The notes beneath the pieces were generated by a model. That model saw only the letters and a program-made list of their open reading frames with translations, was not told the DNA's origin and did no database searches. Shown here piece by piece: positions 192 to 41,443 of a stretch of DNA of 64,000 nt (its first letter is position 1; every line of letters begins with the position of its first letter). The stretch covers positions 2,476-66,475 of the forward strand of contig JAFXHN010000057.1 in the NCBI GenBank assembly GCA_017536365.1, in the 5' to 3' direction. Position numbers and translations under genes: made by a program. This DNA is from Bacillota bacterium. GTDB taxonomy: Bacteria > Bacillota > Clostridia > Peptostreptococcales > Anaerovoracaceae.

Positions 192-465
192 AGTAATTTA
201 ATAAGTTAAGGCGATGACAAGAATCAGTTTGAAAAAGGCCTCTTCAGAGAGCTGTTGGTTGGTGAAAAACAGTGTGGACATTCAAACGGCTCCTCTTCGA
301 GCCATTGGACCGAACAATTATTTTAGTAGGCTCCAACGGGTTCTCCCGTTACAGAGATAGATATTCACAGGATATCGATAAAGCGGGTGTAAGTTTTTTA
401 CATCAAGAAGAGTGGTACCGCGGATTACCCCGTCTCTTTGTTATTAGAGACGGGGATTTTTTTTC
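192..465 (+). promoter_or_regulatory. T-box riboswitch leader upstream of ilvB
   Basis: Stem I elements AGAGAG (246-251) and GGTTGGTGAAAA (257-268). Conserved T-box sequence AAGAGTGGTACCGCGG (408-423) lies directly before and overlaps the 5' flank of an intrinsic terminator (428-464). Confidence 0.8.
428..464 (+). terminator. T-box leader intrinsic terminator
   Basis: CCCCGTCTC (428-436) pairs with GAGACGGGG (447-455), followed by a T8 run (457-464). Confidence 0.85.
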
Positions 466-537: not shown

Positions 538-2211
538 ATGATTAAAACAGGCGCACAAATCGTTATGGAGTGTTTGCTGGAACAGGGCGTTGATACAGTG
601 TTCGGATATCCGGGCGGAACTGTAATAGACCTTTATGATGCATTATATGAATACTCTGATAAGATCCATCATGTGCTGACTGCACATGAGCAGGGGGCAT
701 CTCATGCAGCAGACGGATATGCAAGATCCACAGGAAAACCGGGTGTAGTGATCGCAACTTCAGGCCCGGGTGCAACAAATCTGGTAACAGGACTGGCAAC
801 AGCAAATATGGACTCTATCCCTATGGTCGCTATCACAGGAAACGTAAATATAAACAATCTGGGAACAGACGCATTCCAGGAAGTAGACATCTACGGCGTA
901 ACATTCCCGGTCACAAAGTACAGCTTTATCGTTAAAGATCAGAAAGACATTGCTGATGCATTAAGAAAAGCGTTCTACATAGCTCAGGAAGGAAGACCTG
1001 GTCCGGTACTGGTGGACATCCTTAAGAATGCGCAGTCAGGAACAACAGAATTCGAACCTGCAGTGCCAAAAGAAATTTTACCTAAGAACGATAAACTCAC
1101 AGGCGAATCAATAGAAAAAGCCATCGATATCATAAACGAAGCTAAAAGACCTATGATCTTTGCCGGCGGCGGTGTAAATCTGTCAAATGCAACAGACAGC
1201 CTTATGAAATTCGCAAACAAGATCGGTTCACCTATCTCTCTCTCAATGATGGGTCTTGGCGGATGCCCTGCAGATTATGAATATTTCACAGGAATGCTGG
1301 GAATGCACGGAACAAGACTTTCATCAACTGCGGTTACAAACTGCGACCTCCTCATTTTAGCGGGAGCAAGAATGTCAGAGAGAGTAACAGGAAATGCAAA
1401 GACCTTTGCTACTCATGCAAAGATACTCCATCTGGATGTTGACGCGGCTGAGATCAATAAAGTAGTAGACTCTACAACAAGTGTCATCGGAGATTTGGAT
1501 ACAGTTCTTTCTATCCTTGCAGAAAAGGTTGAAGAAAAGACCGATATGGCTTGGAGAAAGCAGATCCTTAAATGGAAAAAAGAATATCCGGTAGTAGTAG
1601 AAGAAAGAGGAAAGATAGCTCCTCATAATCTTGTAAGAACAGTTGCTGAAAAAATGCCTAAAGATACTATCGTAGTAACAGACGTAGGACAGCATCAGAT
1701 CTGGGCGGCTCAGCACTATCCAATAAACAACCCAAGATCATTCATATCATCCGGCGGTCTGGGAACTATGGGCTTCGGTCTCGGAGCGGCTATAGGCAGC
1801 AAGAGCGGTAACCCTAACAGAAAAGTAGTTCTCTTTACAGGAGACGGCAGCTTCCAGATGAACTGCAATGAGATCGTTACAGCTGCAACACAGGGTTTGG
1901 ACATACTGATCGTTCTGGTAAATAACGGCGTTCTCGGTATGGTAAGACAGTGGCAGAAGCTGATGTACAAGCAGCATTACAGCCAGACAACTCACAACAG
2001 AAAGATCGATTACGTAAAACTTGCTGAAGCTTTCGGAGCGACAGGTTTTGACGTTACAACTATGGATGAACTCGAAGCGGCGATAGACGCATCAATGGAT
2101 ATCAAGGGTCCTGTTATCATCAATGCAATGATAGACAAAGACTTCAGTGCACTTCCAATGGTTCCTCCGGGAAACAAGTATAACGAGCAGATATTTAAAA
2201 TAGAAGTATAG
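538..2211 (+). CDS. ilvB: acetolactate synthase large subunit
   Basis: 557-aa ORF. ThDP-enzyme motifs GYPGG, GLGTMGFGLGAAIG and GDGSFQMN. A small-subunit gene follows. Confidence 0.9.
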   Translation: MIKTGAQIVMECLLEQGVDTVFGYPGGTVIDLYDALYEYSDKIHHVLTAHEQGASHAADGYARSTGKPGVVIATSGPGATNLVTGLATANMDSIPMVAITGNVNINNLGTDAFQEVDIYGVTFPVTKYSFIVKDQKDIADALRKAFYIAQEGRPGPVLVDILKNAQSGTTEFEPAVPKEILPKNDKLTGESIEKAIDIINEAKRPMIFAGGGVNLSNATDSLMKFANKIGSPISLSMMGLGGCPADYEYFTGMLGMHGTRLSSTAVTNCDLLILAGARMSERVTGNAKTFATHAKILHLDVDAAEINKVVDSTTSVIGDLDTVLSILAEKVEEKTDMAWRKQILKWKKEYPVVVEERGKIAPHNLVRTVAEKMPKDTIVVTDVGQHQIWAAQHYPINNPRSFISSGGLGTMGFGLGAAIGSKSGNPNRKVVLFTGDGSFQMNCNEIVTAATQGLDILIVLVNNGVLGMVRQWQKLMYKQHYSQTTHNRKIDYVKLAEAFGATGFDVTTMDELEAAIDASMDIKGPVIINAMIDKDFSALPMVPPGNKYNEQIFKIEV

Positions 2212-2225
2212 GAGGGATAAATAAG

Positions 2226-2735
2226 ATGGAAGAAAGAAGATATGTATTGTCCCTGATCGTACAGAATAAAGCGGGTGTTTTGAGCAGGATATCAGGACTG
2301 CTCACAAGAAGAGGTTTTAACATAGATTCAATTTCCGCTGCAGAAACGGAAAAACCGGATATCTCTTTGATAATCATCGTATTCCAGGCTGATGCTCATA
2401 CCGCGGAACAGATCATGAAGCAGCTTGAAAAACAGGTAGACGTATTTGAGATAAGAGAGCTCAGATCACCAGAATCTGTAACAAGAGAGCATGTTATGAT
2501 CAAAGTAAAGGCCGCGCCTGATGAAAGAAATTCAATAATCGCAGTAGCGGGGATATTCAGAGCAAGCATCATAGACGTTTCTCCGGAGACTATGATAGTT
2601 GAGCTTACGGGAGAATCATCAAAGACTAAGGCTTTTATCGAAGCAATAAAACCATACGGAATAATCCAGGTAGCAAGATCCGGCATAATAGGTATGTCAA
2701 GACTCGAAGCGCCTGTTTTAAAAGAGATGTTTTAA
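2226..2735 (+). CDS. ilvN: acetolactate synthase small (regulatory) subunit
   Basis: 169 aa. N-terminal ACT-domain signature LSLIVQNKAGVLSRISGLLTRRGFNIDS. Position directly after ilvB. Confidence 0.88.
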   Translation: MEERRYVLSLIVQNKAGVLSRISGLLTRRGFNIDSISAAETEKPDISLIIIVFQADAHTAEQIMKQLEKQVDVFEIRELRSPESVTREHVMIKVKAAPDERNSIIAVAGIFRASIIDVSPETMIVELTGESSKTKAFIEAIKPYGIIQVARSGIIGMSRLEAPVLKEMF

Positions 2736-2770
2736 TGTTGTAAATTTATACATGATCAGGAGAGAAAAAT

Positions 2771-4435
2771 ATGAGAAGTGAAAATGTAAAAAAAGATTAT
2801 ACAAAAGCCCCGCACAGAAGCTTATTCAGAGCTATGGGGTATGTAGATGAAGAACTGGATAGACCGCTTATCGGCGTTGTTAATTCACAGAATGAGATCG
2901 TACCGGGTCACGTTCATCTCGACACAATAGCAAAAGCTGTTAAAGAAGGTATCAGAGCAGCGGGAGGAACACCTATAGAAGTTCCTGCTATAGCAGTATG
3001 TGACGGTATAGCTATGAACCATATCGGAATGAGATATTCTCTCGTATCAAGAGAACTCATAGCAGACAGCGTGGAAACAATGGCTATCGCTCATCAGTTT
3101 GACGGTCTGGTGCTTATCCCTAACTGTGATAAAACAGTTCCGGGTATGCTTATGGCAGCAGCAAGGATCAATATTCCTACAGTTGTAGTATCCGGCGGAC
3201 CAATGCTGGCAGGCGATTATGACGGAAAGAAGATCAGTCTCAGCCAGATGTTTGAAGCAGTAGGCTCAAAGAGCGCAGGATTGATCACAGATCAGCAGCT
3301 TTGCATGATGGAAGACAATGCTTGTCCTACATGCGGATCCTGTTCAGGTATGTTCACAGCAAATTCAATGAACTGTCTTACAGAAGCTGTAGGAATGGGG
3401 CTCCCGGGAAACGGAACTATCCCTGCAGTAGCTGCAGCAAGAATAAGACTGGCAAAACAGGCTGGATTCAAGATCATGGATCTCGTTAGAGAAGACATCA
3501 AGCCTAGAGATATAATGACAGAAAAAGCATTCAAAAATGCTCTTACAGTTGATATGGCATTAGGATGTTCAACAAACTCAATGCTTCACTTACCTGCCAT
3601 CGCAAGAGAAGCAGGAGTAAAGATCGACCTGGAATCAGCAAACGGAATGAGTGCAGTAACGCCTAACCTTTGCAAACTGGCTCCGGCAGGATTCCACTTT
3701 ATGGAACACCTTAACGCTGCAGGCGGTGTTTATGCAGTAATGAACGAGCTCAGCAAGCTTGGCCTTCTTGAAGAAGACGCAATGACAGTAAACGGAAACA
3801 CAATAGGCGAAGCTATTGCGGATTGTCCTGTATTGAATTACGACATCATCAAATCTGTAGAAGCTCCTTACAGCAAAACCGGCGGTATTGCTGTGCTCAA
3901 AGGAAACCTTGCAGCAGAAGGCTGTGTAGTAAAAAGATCAGCCATTGCTCCTGAAATGCTGGTACATGAAGGACCTGCAAAGGTATTCGACAGTGAAGAA
4001 GAATCAATGGAAGCTATACTCGGCGGCGGCATCGAACCGGGCGACGTTGTTGTTATCAGATATGAAGGTCCTAAAGGCGGTCCTGGAATGAGAGAAATGC
4101 TTTCACCTACAGCATCTCTTGCGGGAAGAGGACTGGATAACTGTGTAGCTCTTATCACAGACGGAAGATTCTCAGGCGCGACAAGGGGTGCAGCTATCGG
4201 TCATGTATCACCGGAAGCAGCAGAAGGCGGAATGATAGGTCTTGTAAAGAACGGAGACATCATTTCCATCAATATACCTGAAGGAAAAATCGAACTGAAT
4301 GTAAGCGAAGAAGAATTAGCAGAAAGAAGAAAGACTTTCGTGCCGAAAGAACCATCAGTTAAGACAGGTATCCTCGCTAAATACGCAAGATTAGTAAGAT
4401 CAGCATCAGAAGGAGCCGTCTTAAGCGCAGAATAG
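2771..4435 (+). CDS. ilvD: dihydroxy-acid dehydratase
   Basis: 554 aa. Motifs [25 protein letters not shown] and [10 protein letters not shown]. Confidence 0.92.
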
Positions 4436-4444
4436 GAGAAAGAA

Positions 4445-5971
4445 ATGTCAGCACAGATCAAGATATTTGATACTACATTAAGAGATGGAGAACAGTCACC
4501 GGGCTGTTCAATGAACCTCAATGAAAAAATAGAAATGGCCAAACAGCTGGAAAAGCTGAAGGTAGATATTATTGAAGCGGGATTTGCAATAGCATCTCCG
4601 GGAGACTTCGAATCAGTAAGGACTATTGCGGAAACAGTACACGATGTTACTGTAGCCAGTCTTGCCCGTGCCGTAAAAGGAGATATAGACGCAGCTTGGG
4701 AAGCAGTAAGAGTAGCAAACAAGCCAAGGATCCATGTATTCCTTGCTACGTCTCCGATCCATATGCAGTATAAGCTTCAGATGACACCGGACGAAGTTAT
4801 AGCAAGAACAGCGGAGATGGTAAAATATGCTAAACACTACTGCGATGATATAGAATTCTCTGCAGAAGATGCTACAAGAAGCGAAAAGTTCTTCCTTTCA
4901 AAGGTAATTGAAACAACTATCGCAAACGGAGCAACAACAGTAAATATACCTGATACAGTAGGTTATGCTACACCTGATGAAATGTACAACCTTATGGTGC
5001 ACCTCAGACAGACCGTTAAAGGTATCGATAATGTGGACATCTCAACACATAACCACAATGACTTAGGTCTTGCTGTAGCAAACTCTCTTGCAGCTATCAG
5101 AGGCGGTGCAACACAGATCGAATGTACTGTCAACGGCATAGGAGAACGTGCCGGAAATGCAGCTCTCGAAGAGATCGTAATGGCTCTCAAAACAAGAAAA
5201 GACTGCTACAATGCGGATACAAAGATAGATTCGACACAGATCTACAGAACAAGCAAACTTTTAACAAGTGTTATAGGTGTTAGACCTGCTCCTACAAAGC
5301 CTATCGTAGGAAGAAATGCTTTTGCTCATGAATCCGGAGTTCATCAGCATGGCGTACTTGCCAACAAGGCAACATATGAGATCATGACTCCGGAAGATAT
5401 CGGTATCCCTTCAAATGCTATGGTGCTCGGAAAGCATTCCGGAAGACATGCATTTGTTGAAAGACTTAAGTATCTCGGTATCGAACTTCCTCAGGAAAAA
5501 ACAAACGAAGTTTTCAACAAGTTCAAAGAACTTGCAGACAGAAAGAAGATCGTATCCGACAGAGATATCGAAGCTCTTGTTGGAAGAAACTCCATCACTA
5601 TCGACGAAAAATACAAGCTCAAATATTTTGCTGTTAACAGCGCATCAGAGATCGGTGCAACAGCAACTATCTTACTGGAATGGGAAGGCGGATCAAGAAA
5701 ATTTGCTGCTATCGGAGACGGTATGGTAGAAGCTGCATTCTCATCCATTGATGATATCACAGGCATCTATCCTGAATTACAGTCATACGAGATACAGGGC
5801 GTTACCGGAGGTATTGACGCACAGGGTGAAGTTGCAGTAAGATTAAGAGTAGATGATATTACAGTTATTGGTACTGGTGTCAGCCTTGATGTTATCGAAG
5901 CCAGCATCAGAGCATACATAAACGGCATAAACAAGCTGATTTATGAAATGGAAAAGAGAGGTATAGAATAG
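4445..5971 (+). CDS. leuA: 2-isopropylmalate synthase
   Basis: 508 aa. Motifs [14 protein letters not shown] and [13 protein letters not shown], plus a C-terminal LeuA regulatory domain. Confidence 0.9.
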
Positions 5972-5972
5972 T

Positions 5973-7262
5973 ATGGGTATGACAATGACTCAGAAGATCA
6001 TAGCTGCTCACGGCGGCCGTGAATCTGTAAAAGCAGGCGAGCTTATAAGAGTAGATTTGGACTTCGTTCTGGGTAATGACGTTACTGCTCCTGTTGCTAT
6101 CAATGAATTCCAGAAAGCCGGATTCGACAGCATCTTCAGCAAAGAAAAGATCGCTTTCGTAATGGACCACTTCACACCGGCTAAGGATATCAATTCAGCA
6201 ACTCTCGTAAAGAAATCAAAAGAGTTTGCTGAAAAATACGGCATAGTGAATTTCTTCGATGTTGGTAAAGTAGGCGTTGAACACGCTCTTCTCCCTGAAC
6301 AGGGACTTGTTGGCCCGGGAGAGATCATAATCGGGGCAGACAGCCACACATGTACATACGGTGCGTTAGGCGCATTCTCAACAGGTGTAGGTTCAACGGA
6401 TATGGCGGCCGGCATGTACAGCGGTCAGGCATGGTTCAAGGTTCCTTCAGCTATCAAATTTGAACTGGTAGGAAAACCAAACCCATTCGTCAGCGGTAAA
6501 GACGTTATCCTTACTATCATCGGAATGATCGGTGTAGAAGGTGCAAGATATAAATCTATGGAATTTATGGGCGAAGGTCTCAAATATTTATCAATGGACG
6601 ACAGACTTTGTATGGCTAATATGGCTATCGAAGCCGGCGGGAAGAACGGTATCTTCGAAGTAGACGAAGTTACTCTCAAATACGTTGAAGGCAGAGTAAA
6701 CAGACCTTTCAAATATTACAAAGCAGATGAAGATGCAGAATATGACGAAGTGTACACTATCGATCTTTCAAAGATCGAACCTACAGTTGCATTCCCTCAT
6801 CTTCCTGAAAATACAAGACCTGTTTCAGAAGCAGGTGACGTTCCTATCCATCAGGTAGTTATCGGTTCCTGCACAAACGGCAGACTTGAAGACTTAAGAG
6901 CTGCTGCTATCGTTCTTAAAGGCAGAAAAGTAGCTGACGGAGTAAGATGTATCGTTATCCCGGCTACACAGGAAATCTATAAGAACGCATTAGAAGAAGG
7001 CTTACTGTCAATATTCCTCGAAGCAGGCTGCGCTATTTCAGCTCCTACCTGCGGACCATGTCTCGGAGGACATATGGGCATCATGGCTGACGGAGAAAGA
7101 GCTGTTGCTACAACAAACAGAAACTTCGTTGGAAGAATGGGTCATACAGGCAGTGAAGTTTATCTTGCAAGCCCTGCGGTTGCTGCTGCAAGTGCTGTTG
7201 CAGGCAAGGTTGCGGAACCAAAGGATATCGGCATGACCGATATGGAAAATTTCAGATATTAG
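5973..7262 (+). CDS. leuC: 3-isopropylmalate dehydratase large subunit
   Basis: 429 aa. Aconitase-family motifs [22 protein letters not shown] and CGPCLG. The start could be one of three nearby ATGs (MGMTMT). Confidence 0.88.
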
Positions 7263-7274
7263 GAGGGGATAGTA

Positions 7275-7754
7275 ATGAAAGCAAAAGGTACAGTATTTAA
7301 ATACGGTGACAATGTTGATACAGACGTTATCATCCCTGCAAGATATCTCAACATCACAGATATGAATGAGCTTTCAGCTCACTGCATGGAAGATATAGAC
7401 AAAGAATTCAGAGGAAAAGTTCAGCAGGGAGATATCATGGTGGCAGGAAACAACTTCGGCTGCGGATCTTCCAGAGAACATGCACCTGCAACTATTAAAG
7501 CTTCAGGTATCTCTTGTGTTATAGCTAATTCTTTCGCTAGGATCTTCTACAGAAACTCCATCAACATCGGTCTGGCTATTATCGAATGTCCGGAAGCTGT
7601 TGCAGCTATTTCTGCAGGAGACGTTGTAAGCGTTGATTTTATCAAAGGTGAGATCGTTGATGAAACAACAGGTCAGACTTTCAAAGCAGATCCTTTCCCA
7701 CCATTCCTTCAGGATATTATCGACAAAGGCGGTCTGCTAAAGGCCATCAAATAA
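7275..7754 (+). CDS. leuD: 3-isopropylmalate dehydratase small subunit
   Basis: 159 aa. [13 protein letters not shown] motif. Follows leuC. Confidence 0.88.
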
Positions 7755-7776
7755 CAGGGAACAGGAGGGTAATAAT

Positions 7777-8853
7777 ATGAAATTCAATGTTGCTGTAATT
7801 AAAGGGGACGGAATAGGCCCTGAGATCGTAGATGAAGCGATAAAAGTACTGGAAGCTGTAGGCAAAAAGTACGGCCACGAGTTTGCTTATACAGAAGCTC
7901 TCGCCGGCGGATGCTCCATTGAGACCCATGGCATACCTCTTACACAGGAAACTATAGATATTTGTAAATCAAGTGATGCTATCCTCTTAGGCGCTGTAGG
8001 CGGACCTAAATGGGATAACCTCCCGGGATATTTAAGAGCAGAAAAAGCTATCCTCGGACTCAGATCAGAATTAGGACTTTTTGCAAATCTGAGACCTGCT
8101 CTTATGTTTGATTCTCTTTCAGACGCATGCCCGCTTAAACCTGAACTGGTGGAAGGCGGTCTGGACGTTCTCATCGTTAGAGAGCTTACCGGCGGCGTAT
8201 ACTTCGGAGAAAGAGGAAGAAAATTCACTGAAGATATGGGAGAAATGGCATACGATGTAATGCCTTATACAGAAAAAGAGATCGAAAGGATCGGAAGAGT
8301 TGCTTTCGAAATGGCAATGAAGAGAAATAAGAAAGTGACAAGCGTAGACAAATCCAATGTTCTTGAAACATCAAGACTCTGGAGAAGCGTAATGCACAAC
8401 ATCAAGGATGATTATCCTGAAGTTGAATACGAAGATCTTTTCGTAGACAATACAGCTATGCAGCTGGTCATCAATCCAAAACAGTTCGACGTTATCGTTA
8501 CAGAAAACATGTTTGGAGATATCCTCTCTGACGAAGCATCAATGATCACAGGATCTATCGGAATGCTTCCATCTGCAAGCTTCGGCGAAGGAACAAGAGG
8601 TCTTTATGAACCTGTTCACGGTTCTGCTCCTGACATTGCAGGCAAAGGAATTGCAAATCCATTAGCTACTATCCTTTCAGTAGCTATGATGCTCAAGTAT
8701 TCTTTCGGACTTCTGGAAGAAGCAGTAGCAGTGGAAGATGCTGTAAAAGCCGTTCTCGAAGACGGATGGAGAACTGCAGATATCGCTAAAAAAGGCGAAA
8801 AAGCATTGAGTACTCAGGAAATGGGTGCTAAAGTAATAGAAAAACTTCAATAA
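7777..8853 (+). CDS. leuB: 3-isopropylmalate dehydrogenase
   Basis: 358 aa. Motifs [10 protein letters not shown] and [12 protein letters not shown]. Confidence 0.9.
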
Positions 8854-14594: not shown

Positions 14595-14670
14595 TGGCAC
14601 CCCAGAGATGATTCGAACATCCGACGCACGGTTTAGGAAACCGACGCTCTATCCCCTGAGCTACTGGGGC
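14595..14670 (-). tRNA. tRNA-Arg (anticodon CCU), CCA encoded
   Basis: The reverse complement GCCCCAGTAGCTCAGGGGATAGAGCGTCGGTTTCCTAAACCGTGCGTCGGATGTTCGAATCATCTCTGGGGTGCCA folds by hand as a cloverleaf. It has a 7-bp acceptor stem, a GCTC/GAGC D stem, anticodon loop TTCCTAA and T loop TTCGAAT. Confidence 0.88.
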
Positions 14671-39548: not shown

Positions 39549-39581
39549 CTCGCGTTTGCAGTATGCAGGCGCGAGTTTTTT
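39549..39581 (+). terminator. intrinsic terminator after coaX
   Basis: CTCGCG...CGCGAG hairpin followed by T6. Confidence 0.65.
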
Positions 39582-39675
39582 ATATTTGAGTTTAAATATG
39601 TAGGGATATTTGAGAAAGGGAGTTTTGTGATAAAAGACGGGCGGAATTAACATATTGGATAGAAATATAAACAAA

Positions 39676-39939
39676 GTGTTAACCGTTTAACACTAGAATT
39701 AAATTTTGAAAGAAAATGTTAAAAGATTTAACACAATTGGTGGAGAAATTGGAAAAAATGTTAAGCAATTAACATATAAGAGAAAAATCAGGATAAAGTG
39801 TTAAAAGAATTAACACAAAATTGAGAAAAACAAGAAAAGTGTTAAAAGGTTTAACAAAAAATGTGAAAAACTGAGTGAAGTGTTAACGAGTTAACACAAA
39901 TATAAAGAAATATTAGAAAAGTGTTAAAAAGCTTAACCC
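39676..39939. repeat. phased tandem array: seven 18-19 bp palindromes GTGTTAA-N4/5-TTAACAC at a 40-42 bp period
   Basis: Copies at 39676-39693, 39716-39734, 39758-39775, 39798-39816, 39839-39857, 39880-39897 and 39921-39939. They are separated by A-rich linkers of about 22 nt with similar composition. Confidence 0.9.
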
Positions 39940-40044
39940 AATAGACGTTTGCTTAGCAAATGTTGTTAAAAATCAAATCTAAGGATGAAGCGACGTTTGT
40001 AATATACGCATATAGGGAGTTTACATAAAGCCAAATGGAAAAAT

Positions 40045-40073
40045 TTGACAATTCGTGAACGCTGTTATAGTAT
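40045..40073 (+). promoter_or_regulatory. sigma-A promoter for the orphan nuclease-like gene
   Basis: TTGACA (40045-40050). The -10 is either TGtTATAGT (spacer 15) or TAGTAT (40068-40073, spacer 17). Confidence 0.5.
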
Positions 40074-40101
40074 AAAAGGAAAAGGGGAAAGGTGATAAAC
40101 A

Positions 40102-40932
40102 ATGAGAGAGATTATTATCAATGAAATGGAAAGGTACAGAAAGATTTTACAGGAGGACATGGAGGAAGTAAAATTATTATCGACAGATGGGATAACTACG
40201 AAGGTCATAAAAAATGAATTGTATTTTTATAAGAGAGAATATGATCCGAAAACGAACAAAAGAAAATACCGGTGCTTAGGAAATGTCAAGAGCTTGGATG
40301 AGGCATATATTTGTGAGATTTTACGAAGGGATCATTTAAATGAAAGAATAAAGGTAAATAAAAAGAATCTTGAATTGCTAACCAAGATCGTTCCTTTGTT
40401 AAAAAAAGAAGGTTATGGGAAAATCTATAGCCGTGTATCCAAAGCGGCAAAATTTTCGTATGCAACGAAACAAGATCACAGCATAGAGAGATATAAAGGC
40501 AGAGAAGTTGAGGCTTTGATTTGGCTCAGTAAAAACAATGATACTGTTACATTTCGCAATGATGAATTGCTGCATATGACGGCAAGGGGCTTAAGGGTAC
40601 GATCAAAGTCAGAGTTACTGATTGCTTCCGCTCTTGAGGAAAGGAGGCTTCTTTTTAAGTATGAACCGGAAATAAAAGGAGGATCAAACTCTGTTTTCAG
40701 ACCGGATTTTGTTGTTCTTAGACCTGGAGATATGAAGGAGATATATTGGGAGCACTTTGGCTTGATGAATGATCCGGAGTATGAAAAGAAGGCGATGGAA
40801 AAATTGATAAAGTATCAAAAGATGGGCTATTGTTTATGGGATAACCTGATCATTTCATTTGATTCAGACAAAGGATCCTTTAATATGCAGAGTATAAATA
40901 GAATTATTGACATGTTTATATCAGTGGAATAA
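40102..40932 (+). CDS. hypothetical protein with C-terminal PD-(D/E)XK-like (T7 endonuclease I / helicase-IV-N-terminal-like) domain
   Basis: 276 aa. The C-terminal half RSKSELLIASALEERRLLFKYEPEI...FRPDFVVL...IYWEHFG matches the S.SE...L....I.YEYE...PDF...E..G pattern of this nuclease fold. The N-terminal 150 aa are unassigned. Confidence 0.6.
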   Translation: MREIIINEMERYRKILQEDMEEVKLLSTDGITTKVIKNELYFYKREYDPKTNKRKYRCLGNVKSLDEAYICEILRRDHLNERIKVNKKNLELLTKIVPLLKKEGYGKIYSRVSKAAKFSYATKQDHSIERYKGREVEALIWLSKNNDTVTFRNDELLHMTARGLRVRSKSELLIASALEERRLLFKYEPEIKGGSNSVFRPDFVVLRPGDMKEIYWEHFGLMNDPEYEKKAMEKLIKYQKMGYCLWDNLIISFDSDKGSFNMQSINRIIDMFISVE

Positions 40933-40957
40933 AGGATAAGATGGTCAGCCAAAACAA

Positions 40958-41313
40958 TTCGCCGTATACGAAGAAACTAACTTCAAATTCGCTGCAAACG
41001 AAAAACAAAAAAACCGGGACAATGCCGGGTGGTTTTCGTTTAAGGCGAACGATGGGAGGAGAGGAAGAATAATGTACGAAGAAATGTTGGATAACGCGCC
41101 GCAAAATTCGTTTAAACCGAAGGGCGCGCCCTGTTTTTTTGTTTCGTTACAGGCGAAAAAGAGCTCGGCGGGGCAAATGTTTCGTTTAAGACGAAAGCAA
41201 AAATAGGAAAAGAAAAATGTGAACATAAACAATTCGTTTAAACCGAACATTAAAAAAATGAAAAGCGAAGCAAGGGCTGGAGCGCTTGCTTTTTATAATT
41301 CGCTTATAACGAA
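40958..41313. repeat. eight dispersed copies of a 15-bp inverted repeat TTCG-N7-CGAA (consensus AATTCGTTTAAACCGAAC)
   Basis: Copies at 40958-40972, 40988-41002, 41035-41049, 41107-41121, 41143-41157, 41181-41195, 41233-41247 and 41299-41313. Copies 4 and 7 are identical. Spacing is irregular (30-72 bp). Confidence 0.85.
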
Positions 41314-41443
41314 CAACAAAAAGAGATAAAGGTCTTTGACGCGAGGATCAAAATGATATTGATAGGGAAAGGAAGAATTGTATATATGGACAAAAAGTGT
41401 TATAATATAATGCCTAAAAAATAAGAATCAATTAAGGAATAAT

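What the first reader, a model, noticed from the sequence alone, without database searches (positions are those of the whole stretch)
39676..39939. Phased 41-bp array of seven GTGTTAA-N4/5-TTAACAC palindromes upstream of an orphan nuclease-like gene
**Seen in sequence**
- Seven near-identical 7-bp inverted-repeat arms start at 39676, 39716, 39758, 39798, 39839, 39880 and 39921.
- The period is 40-42 bp, about four helical turns, so all copies would lie on one DNA face.
- The A-rich linkers between them are themselves similar (...AAAAT.GAGAAAAA...AGAAAA).
- Degenerate half-sites flank the array (about 39645 and about 39961).
- The arms are conserved in sequence, while the centre varies in both sequence and length (4 or 5 nt).

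**Interpretation**
- The arm/centre pattern fits a hairpin or cruciform (RNA or ssDNA) at least as well as a rigid dimeric dsDNA operator.
- The array has no coding potential.
- It is not explained by the coaX terminator or by the promoter at 40045.
- Phased iterated palindromes of this kind are typical of plasmid/phage centromere (parC/parS-like) or iteron regions, or of cooperative repressor arrays.
- Alternatively the region could be a multi-hairpin ncRNA.
- Which of these applies cannot be decided from sequence alone.
Basis: partly seen in the sequence, partly recalled or inferred. Interest (0 to 1): 0.65.

Follow-up and report, generated by a model that had tools for sequence, protein, structure and literature searches.

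The report
Phased DNA-site array of an orphan nuclease
The palindrome array is real, and it is most likely the private, helically phased DNA docking platform of the uncharacterised nuclease gene next to it; this array-plus-nuclease pair recurs in thousands of gut and rumen bacteria and I found no description of it.

Summary
The array is confirmed. It has seven exact palindromes with a 40-42 bp period, where 0.01 are expected by chance. It is not a stand-alone feature.

- **The neighbouring gene.** The 276-aa gene belongs to a large unannotated family (4,094 clusters at 50% identity). It has a basic, fast-evolving N-terminal alpha-beta3-alpha domain and an invariant PD-(D/E)xK nuclease domain.
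- **Repeats upstream across the family.** In 67% of 119 homologous loci the 450 bp upstream carries its own repeated motif, against 8% in control regions. The motif differs in every lineage.
- **Evidence for double-stranded DNA.** Repeat spacings from 27 lineages fall on multiples of 10.5 bp. Inverted half-sites sit 28-31 bp apart, and arm mismatches show no G·U bias.
- **Re-framing of the unit.** The unit is better read as eight TTAACAY-N22/23-RTGTTAA units (39647-39969). The variable N4/5 "centre" is the junction between units.
- **Sister strain.** The flanking proteins are 95-99% identical, but the nuclease is only 63% identical (N-domain 41%). Its array arms differ by a symmetric change (GAGTTA/TAACTC).

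Best explanation: a cognate, cooperative dsDNA binding array for the adjacent nuclease, acting in autoregulation and/or sequestration. The physiological role is unknown.

The parts
39549..39575 (+). coaX intrinsic terminator. It marks the left edge of the variable cassette; homology to the sister strain L001 ends at 39581.
39647..39969 (.). Whole array: 16 half-sites forming 8 units of TTAACAY-N22/23-RTGTTAA, joined by 4-5 bp junctions, with a 40-42 bp period.
39647..39682 (.). Unit 1 (TTAACAT-N22-GTGTTAA). Its left half-site has no N4/5 palindrome partner.
39687..39722 (.). Unit 2
39728..39764 (.). Unit 3 (N23)
39769..39804 (.). Unit 4
39810..39845 (.). Unit 5
39851..39886 (.). Unit 6
39891..39927 (.). 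Unit 7 (N23)
39933..39969 (.). Unit 8, degenerate (TTAACCC-N23-TTGTTAA). Its right half-site has no palindrome partner.
   Evidence: read directly
40045..40073 (+). Sigma-A-type promoter of the nuclease gene (TTGACA-17-TAGTAT, 10 of 12). The motif ATGGAAAAA-TTGACA is conserved in the close relatives L001, L086, L087 and L089.
40084..40095 (+). Ribosome-binding region (GGGGAAAGGTGA), 6 nt before the ATG.
   Evidence: read directly
40102..40401 (+). Nuclease gene, residues 1-100: helix, basic three-stranded sheet (residues 27-65, pI 9.8), then a long helix. This is the proposed array-reading domain. It is 41% identical to the sister strain over residues 1-65.
40402..40536 (+). Residues 101-145: short helices modelled with low confidence (linker).
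40537..40932 (+). Residues 146-276 plus the stop codon: PD-(D/E)xK nuclease domain (VRSKSE...PDF...WEHFG). It is 81% identical to the sister strain.
39582..41375 (.). Variable cassette between conserved flanks. Only 40035-40947 (promoter plus gene) aligns to L001, at 71%. The rest does not align.

Best explanation
**What it is.** The array is the cognate double-stranded-DNA binding platform of the 276-aa protein encoded just downstream.

**Anatomy of the array**
- Each unit has two inverted 7-bp half-sites (TTAACAY ... RTGTTAA) about 29-30 bp apart, centre to centre, across an A-rich 22-23 bp spacer.
- Eight units abut through 4-5 bp junctions.
- This gives a period of about 41 bp (four helical turns), so all 16 half-sites face one side of the helix.

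**Proposed mechanism**
- The protein's basic, fast-evolving N-terminal alpha-beta3-alpha domain reads the half-sites, probably as one dimer per unit.
- Neighbouring dimers, being in helical register, assemble cooperatively into a one-sided nucleoprotein filament 76 bp upstream of the gene's own promoter.
- The most likely consequence is a high-capacity operator or sink that sets the expression and the free concentration of a potentially dangerous PD-(D/E)xK nuclease (autoregulation and/or sequestration).
- The pair forms a dispensable, rapidly diversifying cassette of the kind seen in conflict systems (defence or addiction).

**Shown here**
- The array exists.
- The gene family is associated with upstream repeats that co-vary with the protein.
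- Spacings are quantised in helical turns.
- Half-site spacing is conserved.
- The N-domain has diverged much faster than its neighbours.
- The C-terminal domain has the nuclease fold and invariant catalytic residues.

**Inferred**
- That this protein is the binder.
- Dimer stoichiometry and filament formation.
- Autoregulation and sequestration.
- Any physiological role.
For: **1. Association**
- An 8-mer or its reverse complement recurs 3 or more times in the 450 bp upstream of the homologue in 80 of 119 loci.
- The far-upstream control gives 8 of 96 (Fisher 7e-20) and the downstream region 30 of 128.
- TRF finds arrays in 28 of 121 upstream regions against 4 of 89 controls.

**2. Co-variation**
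- Every lineage has its own unit sequence.
- Sister strain L001/L003 has FtsH, CoaX, DusB, GreA and LysS 95-99% identical, but the nuclease is 63% identical: residues 1-65 at 41%, the nuclease domain at 81%.
- Its array keeps the 42-bp period, but its arms differ from the window's by a two-fold-symmetric substitution: GAGTTA/TAACTC against GTGTTA/TAACAC.
- Half-site similarity tracks identity of the sheet region (Spearman 0.17, Mantel p 0.019) more than identity of the nuclease domain (0.10, p 0.10).

**3. Double-stranded DNA rather than RNA**
- Repeat spacings from 27 lineages (41/42, 52, 63-65, 72-74, 83-86, 94-96 bp and more) fit a repeat of 10.5 bp best. Mean cosine is 0.67-0.73, and 0 of 20,000 jittered nulls reach it; with distinct values only, 19 of 20,000 do.
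- Inverted half-sites lie 28-31 bp apart in 20 of 50 recurrent distances (binomial 2e-10), independent of the period.
- Arm mismatches are G·U 9, A·C 16 and other 32, which is what chance gives.
- In the window the promoter lies between the array and the gene. No promoter-like site precedes the array and no terminator follows it.

**4. The protein**
- The sheet region is basic: 10 K+R in 39 residues.
- The C-terminal domain has the alpha-beta-beta-beta-alpha-beta core and invariant E171, D202, E217, H218 and K169.
- It matches the C-terminal nuclease domain of the PADLOC defence candidate PDC-S68 (E 1e-27), and PD-(D/E)xK structures such as Bax1, Can2, DrdV and MunI.

**5. Dispensable cassette**
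- A strain with the same CoaX protein as L001 has only a deletion scar holding two fragments of the gene.
- More distant relatives have coaX directly followed by dusB.
Against: - No binding experiment exists.
- The N-terminal domain has no significant structural match to any known DNA-binding fold (best E 0.19). Its alpha-beta-beta-beta-alpha topology also recalls dsRNA-binding domains.
- Arrays are purine-rich on the gene's sense strand in 17 of the 19 arrays with a clear strand bias (8 more lie between 0.45 and 0.55). A symmetric dsDNA site does not require this.
- In the 73/74-bp class the array ends 21-66 bp before the start codon with no recognisable promoter in between, so there it must be transcribed or contain the promoter.
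- About a third of family members show no repeated 8-mer upstream.
- Three N4 copies resemble the clostridial Rex box with two mismatches each.
- The canonical lysine of the (D/E)xK motif is a phenylalanine (F219), so catalytic activity is not certain.
- Why a nuclease should sit on an array beside its own gene is not explained by any tested fact.
Confidence: 0.6

Rival explanations
1. Type III toxin-antitoxin-like RNA. The array is transcribed into a repetitive RNA, which is cut into units that bind and neutralise the adjacent nuclease, as ToxI does for ToxN.
For: - Tandem repeats lie directly upstream of a probable toxic nuclease, and the repeat sequence co-varies with the protein.
- Arrays abut the ribosome-binding site in the 73-bp class.
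- Arrays are purine-rich on the sense strand.
- The N-domain topology is alpha-beta3-alpha, as in dsRNA-binding domains.
Against: - Repeat spacings are quantised at 10.5 bp, which has no meaning for RNA.
- There is no G·U enrichment in the arms.
- In the window the promoter lies downstream of the array, none is found upstream, and no terminator separates array and gene in W, L020, L059 or L107.
- As RNA, the window array would fold into 4-5-nt-loop hairpins while the other classes would have 20-nt loops. As duplex DNA, all classes share a single geometry.
- The protein is not of the ToxN/CptN/TenpN type.
- No Rfam family matches.
Confidence: 0.12
2. The array is the nuclease's substrate rather than only its dock. 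Programmed nicks or breaks in the array would drive local recombination, repeat turnover, or replacement of the cassette.
For: - The catalytic residues are invariant.
- The array and its flanks are hypervariable between near-identical strains.
- Arrays break assemblies and differ between samples.
- A deletion scar is present in a conspecific strain.
Against: - No methylase or other self-protection gene is nearby.
- Arrays are long and homogeneous, which is hard to reconcile with repeated cleavage.
- Nothing here tests cleavage.
Confidence: 0.08
3. The array is bound by a different host factor, and the neighbouring gene is only a passenger. The candidates are the redox repressor Rex, whose clostridial box is TTGTTAANNNNTTAACAA, or a nucleoid protein.
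For: - The three N4 copies (39676, 39758, 39880) match the Rex consensus with 2 mismatches each.
- The A-tract-rich phased DNA would suit nucleoid proteins.
Against: - Four of the seven copies have N5 spacing.
- The orthologous array in L001 has GAGTTA/TAACTC arms, although the host proteins are 95-99% identical.
- Upstream repeats follow this gene family across five phyla, each with a different motif.
- No redox or fermentation gene is adjacent.
Confidence: 0.06
4. A relic of a plasmid or phage maintenance region: a centromere of the sopC/parC type, or an iteron origin.
For: The array has a 41-43 bp period of units carrying 7-bp inverted arms, as in F sopC (recalled from the literature, not tested). 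It lies next to a gene for a probable DNA-binding protein.
Against: - There is no ParA/ParM/TubZ, ParB/ParR or Rep family protein.
- The locus is chromosomal housekeeping synteny in three independent contexts: coaX-dusB, plsY-gpsA, and after comEC.
- Only 18 weak hits covering just the C-terminal domain were found in 2.9 million viral contigs.
Confidence: 0.05
5. Generic REP/MITE-like repetitive filler with no specific function.
For: It is short, palindromic, AT-rich, intergenic and variable between strains.
Against: - No copy lies outside the array in 64 kb.
- Position relative to one gene family is strictly conserved, and spacing is helically quantised.
Confidence: 0.02

Closest known systems
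F-plasmid sopC / SopB centromere, and similar phased centromere arrays (recalled from the literature, not tested here)
   Same: Tandem units of about four helical turns, each carrying 7-bp inverted arms. They are bound cooperatively by a protein encoded alongside, and all sites lie on one face of the helix.
   Different: SopB is a ParB-type protein that works with the SopA ATPase on a plasmid. Here the partner is a solitary PD-(D/E)xK nuclease with a novel N-domain, there is no NTPase, the setting is chromosomal, and the half-sites are read about 29-30 bp apart.
Type III toxin-antitoxin systems (ToxIN, CptIN, TenpIN)
   Same: A tandem repeat array lies immediately upstream of a toxic nuclease gene, and the repeat sequence is specific to its cognate protein.
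   Different: Those repeats act as RNA, are 36-45 nt long, and sit between a promoter upstream and a terminator downstream. The toxins are ToxN-type endoribonucleases. Here the spacing is quantised in DNA helical turns, the promoter follows the array, and the fold differs.
Two-domain restriction endonucleases with a separate recognition domain (Type IIE/IIS, e.g. EcoRII, FokI; recalled from the literature)
   Same: A sequence-reading domain is fused to a PD-(D/E)xK cleavage domain, and behaviour depends on binding several sites.
   Different: No methyltransferase is present. The recognition sites are concentrated in a phased array beside the enzyme's own gene. The N-domain is unrelated to theirs.
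PADLOC phage-defence candidate PDC-S68
   Same: The C-terminal 125 residues are homologous (E 1e-27 to 2e-32).
   Different: PDC-S68 models are about 1,200 residues long. The window protein has 276 residues with a different N-terminus, and no array is known for PDC-S68.
Clostridial Rex operator (TTGTTAANNNNTTAACAA; PMC4600107)
   Same: The core TGTTAA-N4-TTAACA is identical in three copies.
   Different: The outer bases differ, four copies have N5 spacing, the motif changes in the orthologous array, and the regulon context is wrong.
Autoregulated DNA-binding proteins with site clusters upstream of their own gene (iteron/Rep; B. subtilis RTP with its inverted repeats; recalled from the literature)
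   Same: Multiple cognate sites sit just upstream of the binder's own promoter.
   Different: Those have far fewer sites and are not nucleases. They also lack the lineage-by-lineage replacement of site and reader domain seen here.

Membership tests
PD-(D/E)xK nuclease superfamily (C-terminal domain) | alpha-beta-beta-beta-alpha-beta core | tested here: met
   AF2 model (pLDDT 86): H169-180, E184-187, E203-206, E213-219, H225-240, E249-253.
PD-(D/E)xK nuclease superfamily (C-terminal domain) | Conserved acidic catalytic residues on helix 1, strand 2 and strand 3 | tested here: met
   E171, D202 and E217 are invariant in 30 sequences.
PD-(D/E)xK nuclease superfamily (C-terminal domain) | Lysine two residues after the second acidic residue | tested here: inconclusive
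   That position is F219. The invariant K169 or H218 could substitute.
PD-(D/E)xK nuclease superfamily (C-terminal domain) | Similarity to known members | tested here: met
   PADLOC PDC-S68 C-terminus E 1e-27 and HEAT_CxxC_PD-DEXK E 6e-6 to 2e-3. Foldseek hits to Bax1, Can2, DrdV and MunI at E 0.004-0.3. No Pfam or NCBIfam hit.
PD-(D/E)xK nuclease superfamily (C-terminal domain) | Metal-dependent nuclease activity | not testable with these tools
   Needs a biochemical assay.
Type III toxin-antitoxin | Tandem direct repeats directly upstream of the toxin gene | tested here: met
Type III toxin-antitoxin | Promoter upstream of the repeats, so that the repeats are transcribed | tested here: inconclusive
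   The consensus scan finds no site between 39576 and 39646; the only strong site is at 40045, downstream of the array. The scan is crude and there is no expression data.
Type III toxin-antitoxin | Terminator between the repeats and the toxin gene | tested here: not met
   None in the window, L020, L059 or L107.
Type III toxin-antitoxin | ToxN/CptN/TenpN-type endoribonuclease toxin | tested here: not met
   No such Pfam or PADLOC match. The domain is PD-(D/E)xK.
Type III toxin-antitoxin | Repeat RNA is processed and inhibits the toxin | not testable with these tools
   Needs an experiment.
Plasmid/phage centromere (sopC/parC/parS type) | Array of repeated protein-binding sites | tested here: met
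Plasmid/phage centromere (sopC/parC/parS type) | Adjacent ParB-, ParR/ParG- or TubR-type centromere-binding protein | tested here: not met
   No family or fold match.
Plasmid/phage centromere (sopC/parC/parS type) | Partner NTPase (ParA/ParM/TubZ) in the locus | tested here: not met
   The neighbours are ftsH, coaX, dusB, greA and lysS. No conserved partner gene occurs across the family.
Plasmid/phage centromere (sopC/parC/parS type) | Carried on a plasmid or prophage | tested here: not met
   The setting is housekeeping synteny. Viral hits are few.
Iteron replication origin | Direct repeats of 17-22 bp next to a Rep initiator gene | tested here: not met
   The units are inverted half-sites with a 41-bp period, and no Rep family matches.
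Rex regulon operator | 18-bp palindrome TTGTTAA-N4-TTAACAA | tested here: inconclusive
   Three copies match with 2 mismatches each, and four copies have N5 spacing.
Rex regulon operator | Motif conserved at orthologous sites in close relatives | tested here: not met
   The L001/L003 array has GAGTTA/TAACTC arms.
REP/MITE-like dispersed repeats | Many dispersed copies with no positional conservation | tested here: not met
   There are no copies outside the array in 64 kb, and position upstream of one gene family is conserved. The whole genome was not available.
CRISPR / TIGR-type guide arrays | Conserved repeats separated by unique spacers, with Cas/Tas genes nearby | tested here: not met
   The spacers resemble one another (D1-D3), and no such genes are present.

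The most novel reading that the evidence does not exclude
The array and the gene together form a previously unrecognised class of conflict system. In it, a helically phased DNA array acts in cis as the 'antidote' or storage lattice for its own site-specific nuclease. The array and the protein's reader domain co-diversify lineage by lineage. Release of the nuclease, for example when phage attack or loss of the locus disturbs the lattice, would then cut DNA. This would be a DNA-level counterpart of the RNA-repeat antitoxins of type III systems. It is spread over more than 4,000 protein clusters in five phyla.
Probability: 0.2. Interest if true: 0.9.

Novelty: new variant of a known kind. Interest (0 to 1): 0.74.

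Why it matters
- **Scale.** A family of at least 4,094 clusters at 50% identity has no name and no Pfam or NCBIfam model. It occurs in Bacillota, Fibrobacterota, Spirochaetota, Bacteroidota and Chloroflexota.
- **A sequence-only handle.** Each member can be paired with a predicted DNA site. That gives dozens of natural protein-site pairs for working out how a new alpha-beta3-alpha domain reads DNA.
- **A clear test.** Swapping specificity between the window and L001 alleles is a clean experiment.
- **If it is a defence or addiction module.** A non-coding DNA array would then join the list of antidote or sensor components.
- **If it is only an autoregulatory operator.** It is still an unusually clear natural example of helical-turn quantisation in protein-DNA assemblies.
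- **A practical point.** These arrays break metagenome assemblies, so the family is under-sampled.

Tried and rejected
- **Protein family searches.** Pfam, NCBIfam and PDB sequence searches of the protein gave no usable hit. PHROGs gave only marginal 'Holliday junction resolvase / endonuclease' matches.
- **Fold search of the N-domain alone.** Nothing was significant. My lead that it resembles the lambda-Int/Tn916 arm-binding or AP2 fold (recalled from the literature) was not confirmed.
- **RNA routes.** Rfam at gathering and at E-value thresholds found nothing relevant. RNA folding gave strong z-scores on both strands (-5.1 and -7.4), as any palindrome array would, so it does not discriminate.
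- **Exact-palindrome scan of the first 89 loci.** It found arrays only in the nearest relatives. This was misleading until TRF and k-mer statistics revealed the lineage-specific arrays.
- **Search for a conserved partner gene downstream.** None was found. The 138-aa ORF of L001 has no trace in the window.
- **Viral-contig scan for the palindrome.** It returned single chance sites only, plus one contig with seven dispersed sites.
- **Literature searches.** Searches for PDC-S68, for repeat-plus-nuclease TA systems, and for 73-bp repeats near comEC found no description of this module.
- **Promoter scans of other arrays.** They could not place the promoter in the 73-bp class.
Full report
**Observation**

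The region reads as described. (G/A)TGTTAA-N4/5-TTAACA(C/T/A) starts at 39676, 39716, 39758, 39798, 39839 and 39880, and a seventh copy at 39921 has one arm mismatch. TGTTAA-N4/5-TTAACA matches six times in the 64-kb window, all within the array, against 0.01 expected from shuffles. Tandem Repeats Finder reports periods of 41 and 82 bp. No ORF of 40 aa or more crosses the array. The coaX terminator lies at 39549-39575, and a TTGACA-17-TAGTAT promoter lies at 40045-40073.

**Genomic setting**

The window is a Clostridia-type chromosome with the gene order tilS, ftsH, coaX, [array and a 276-aa gene], dusB, greA, lysS. The nearest named CoaX relatives are Aminipila and Anaerovoracaceae, at about 71% identity.

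**The neighbouring protein**

- It has no Pfam, NCBIfam or PDB sequence match.
- An AlphaFold model (pLDDT 86) shows two parts. The N-terminal part is a helix, a three-stranded sheet and a long helix. The C-terminal domain has the alpha-beta-beta-beta-alpha-beta core of PD-(D/E)xK nucleases.
- In an alignment of 30 homologues, G163, V166-E171 (VRSKSE), D202/F203, W216-H218 and G220 are invariant.
- The C-terminal 125 residues match the C-terminus of the PADLOC defence candidate PDC-S68 (E 1e-27). Weaker matches are to solved PD-(D/E)xK nucleases such as Bax1, Can2, DrdV and MunI.
- The sheet region is basic (pI 9.8), while the nuclease domain is acidic (pI 5.8).
- The N-domain alone has no significant structural neighbour.
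- The family is very large and unnamed. A profile search finds 4,094 clusters at 50% identity with E ≤ 1e-30, almost all 255-300 residues long with both domains.
- Members come from Bacillota, Fibrobacter, Treponema, Bacteroidaceae and Flexilinea, and some genomes carry two copies. Viral contigs contribute only 18 weak hits covering just the C-terminal domain.

**The array belongs to the gene**

The closest homologue (P0002, 64% identity) sits in the same coaX-dusB gap in another metagenome. It is preceded by an array with the same period (42 bp) but a different sequence, TTTGAGTTA-N7-TAACTCAAA, in at least nine copies.

I then fetched 169 homologous loci and compared regions:

| Test | Upstream of the gene | Far-upstream control | Downstream |
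|---|---|---|---|
| TRF array | 28 of 121 | 4 of 89 | 13 of 120 |
| 8-mer (or reverse complement) recurring 3+ times in 450 bp | 80 of 119 | 8 of 96 | 30 of 128 |

The 8-mer test is alignment-free, with Fisher p of 7e-20 and 5e-12 against the two controls. Each lineage has its own unit sequence. No partner protein gene is conserved. The conserved module is therefore an array plus a solitary gene.

**Double-stranded DNA or RNA?**

Four results favour double-stranded DNA.

- *Helical quantisation.* Same-orientation repeat spacings from 27 lineages (under 70% protein identity) cluster at 41-42, 52-54, 62-65, 72-74, 83-86, 94-96, 104-107, 116 bp and beyond.
  - The best-fitting repeat is 10.5 bp (mean cosine 0.67-0.73).
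  - None of 20,000 jittered nulls reaches that value. With distinct values only, 19 of 20,000 do.
  - Spacings inside single arrays also differ by 10-11 or 21 bp.
- *Conserved half-site spacing.* Inverted half-sites lie 28-31 bp apart, centre to centre, in 20 of 50 recurrent distances (binomial 2e-10). This holds whether the period is 52, 63, 73 or 83 bp.
- *No wobble signal.* Arm mismatches are G·U 9, A·C 16 and other 32, against 857 Watson-Crick pairs. That is the proportion chance gives.
- *Promoter position.* In the window the promoter lies between the array and the gene. No promoter-like site precedes the array, and no terminator follows it. L059 has the same layout.

RNA folding gives strong z-scores on both strands and so does not discriminate. 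No Rfam family matches.

**Re-framing the window array**

The family-wide 29-30 bp geometry appears in the window as TTAACAY-N22/23-RTGTTAA.

- Seven such units match exactly, against 0.04 expected.
- An eighth, degenerate unit lies at 39933-39969.
- The conserved A-rich 'linker' is therefore the intra-unit spacer, equivalent to the A-rich 20-22 bp between the arms in the other classes.
- The variable 4-5 bp 'centre' is the junction between units.
- Half-site spacings alternate 11-12 and 29-30 bp. They sum to about 41 bp, or four turns, so all sixteen half-sites face one side.

**Co-evolution and turnover**

- Between the window and L001, the FtsH, CoaX, DusB, GreA and LysS proteins are 95-99% identical. 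The nuclease is 63% identical: 41% over residues 1-65, 51% over 66-145, and 81% over the nuclease domain.
- At the DNA level, homology stops at the coaX terminator (39581) and resumes at 41376. Only the promoter and gene (40035-40947) align, at 71%.
- The window and L001 arms differ by a symmetric change, GTGTTA/TAACAC against GAGTTA/TAACTC.
- Across 26 lineages, half-site similarity tracks identity of the sheet region (Spearman 0.17, Mantel p 0.019) better than identity of the nuclease domain (0.10, p 0.10). This is weak but in the predicted direction. Proteins sharing LRAVKHG-YQYFIR share GGCTA half-sites.
- A strain with the same CoaX protein as L001 has only 253 bp between coaX and dusB. 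That stretch contains two fragments of the gene, so it is a deletion scar. More distant relatives have coaX directly followed by dusB.
- Other family members lie between plsY and gpsA, or just after a gene whose C-terminal residues I recognise by eye as comEC-like; that gene was not searched.
- The cassette is therefore dispensable, sporadic and fast-evolving.

**Interpretation**

The best-supported reading is that the array is the cognate duplex-DNA platform of the adjacent protein. The basic N-terminal domain would read it, with probably one dimer per unit and neighbouring dimers in helical register, 76 bp upstream of the gene's own promoter. That this protein is the binder is inferred from association and co-variation. 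Stoichiometry, filament formation, autoregulation and sequestration are also inferred. What the nuclease cuts, and why it should be parked beside its own gene, remain unknown.

Several features suggest a conflict-type role in defence or addiction, but nothing here tests it:
- the rapid diversification of the cassette;
- its dispensability;
- the sharing of its nuclease domain with a defence candidate.

**Caveats**

- Arrays are purine-rich on the sense strand in 17 of the 19 arrays with a clear strand bias; 8 more lie between 0.45 and 0.55.
- In the 73/74-bp class the array ends 21-66 bp before the start codon with no recognisable promoter in between. A transcript-level role is therefore not excluded.
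- Three N4 copies resemble the clostridial Rex box TTGTTAANNNNTTAACAA (PMC4600107). The N5 copies and the changed orthologous array argue against Rex.
- About a third of family members show no upstream repeat by my test.

**Comparison with known systems**

- It works most like phased centromere or operator arrays such as F sopC/SopB (recalled from the literature), but it fails the membership tests for partition loci and iteron origins: no ParA, ParB, ParR or Rep, and a chromosomal setting.
- It resembles type III toxin-antitoxin loci in layout and in co-variation. It fails on terminator, toxin fold and, above all, the DNA-helical quantisation.
- I found no description of this module in the searchable literature.

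I rate it a new variant of a known kind (a protein with a cognate phased site array). There is a real chance (about 0.2) that it is a new class of DNA-array-controlled nuclease system.

Noticed in passing
window 40958-41313: A second, different palindrome cluster lies in the non-coding gap before dusB. TTCG-N7-CGAA (often AATTCGTTTAAACCGAA) occurs 8 times at irregular 30-72 bp spacing, with one more copy inside the nuclease gene at 40455. The window holds 13 copies against 0.71 expected. The cluster is absent from the sister strain L001. By eye, it is interleaved with three terminator-like hairpins and a 44-aa ORF (41072-41206) that has a strong ribosome-binding site.
   Followed up: partly
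L308 4844-4959: The 'empty' coaX-dusB site in a strain with the same CoaX protein as L001 is a deletion scar. It keeps a 43-bp fragment from the start of the nuclease gene and an 83-bp internal fragment.
   Followed up: yes
L005 726-2135; L087 1-100 and L088 1-60: Group II introns (RT with RVT_1/GIIM, or the intron 3' end) are inserted just upstream of two different family members. In L005 the insertion lies right after the upstream gene's terminator, compared with the uninterrupted L004.
   Followed up: partly
L001 4407-4505; contigs of P0003-P0007: The L001 scaffold has a run of N inside the array. The closest homologues sit on 1-2 kb contigs that end near the gene's 5' side. These arrays appear to break short-read assemblies.
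   Followed up: partly
L001 6012-6428: A 138-aa ORF with no Pfam hit lies between the nuclease gene and dusB in the sister strain. It has no trace in the window.
   Followed up: partly
L197 (IMGVR_UViG_3300037308_000046) 1881-8213: A viral contig carries seven dispersed exact GTGTTAA-N4-TTAACAC sites. This may be an operator set of a phage regulator, and it looks unrelated to the array.
   Followed up: no
L133 1880-2210: The 85-bp array units contain CCCGGTTCGAGCCCGGG, a stem-loop resembling a tRNA T-arm.
   Followed up: no
L038 1400-5300 (Butyrivibrio sp. JL13D10 chromosome): The locus around this family member holds at least six separate tandem-repeat arrays (periods 17-69 bp), both upstream and downstream of the gene.
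   Followed up: no
window 205-440 and 14595-14670: A T-box leader lies ahead of the first large ORF, and a tRNA-Arg(CCT) lies on the minus strand. Both are ordinary features.
   Followed up: no
arrays of many loci (e.g. L020, L076, L107, L001): The units often contain Shine-Dalgarno-like purine runs (AAGGAGG, AGGAGGTG, GGAAAAAGGTGAT) on the sense strand. This adds to the unexplained strand bias.
   Followed up: no
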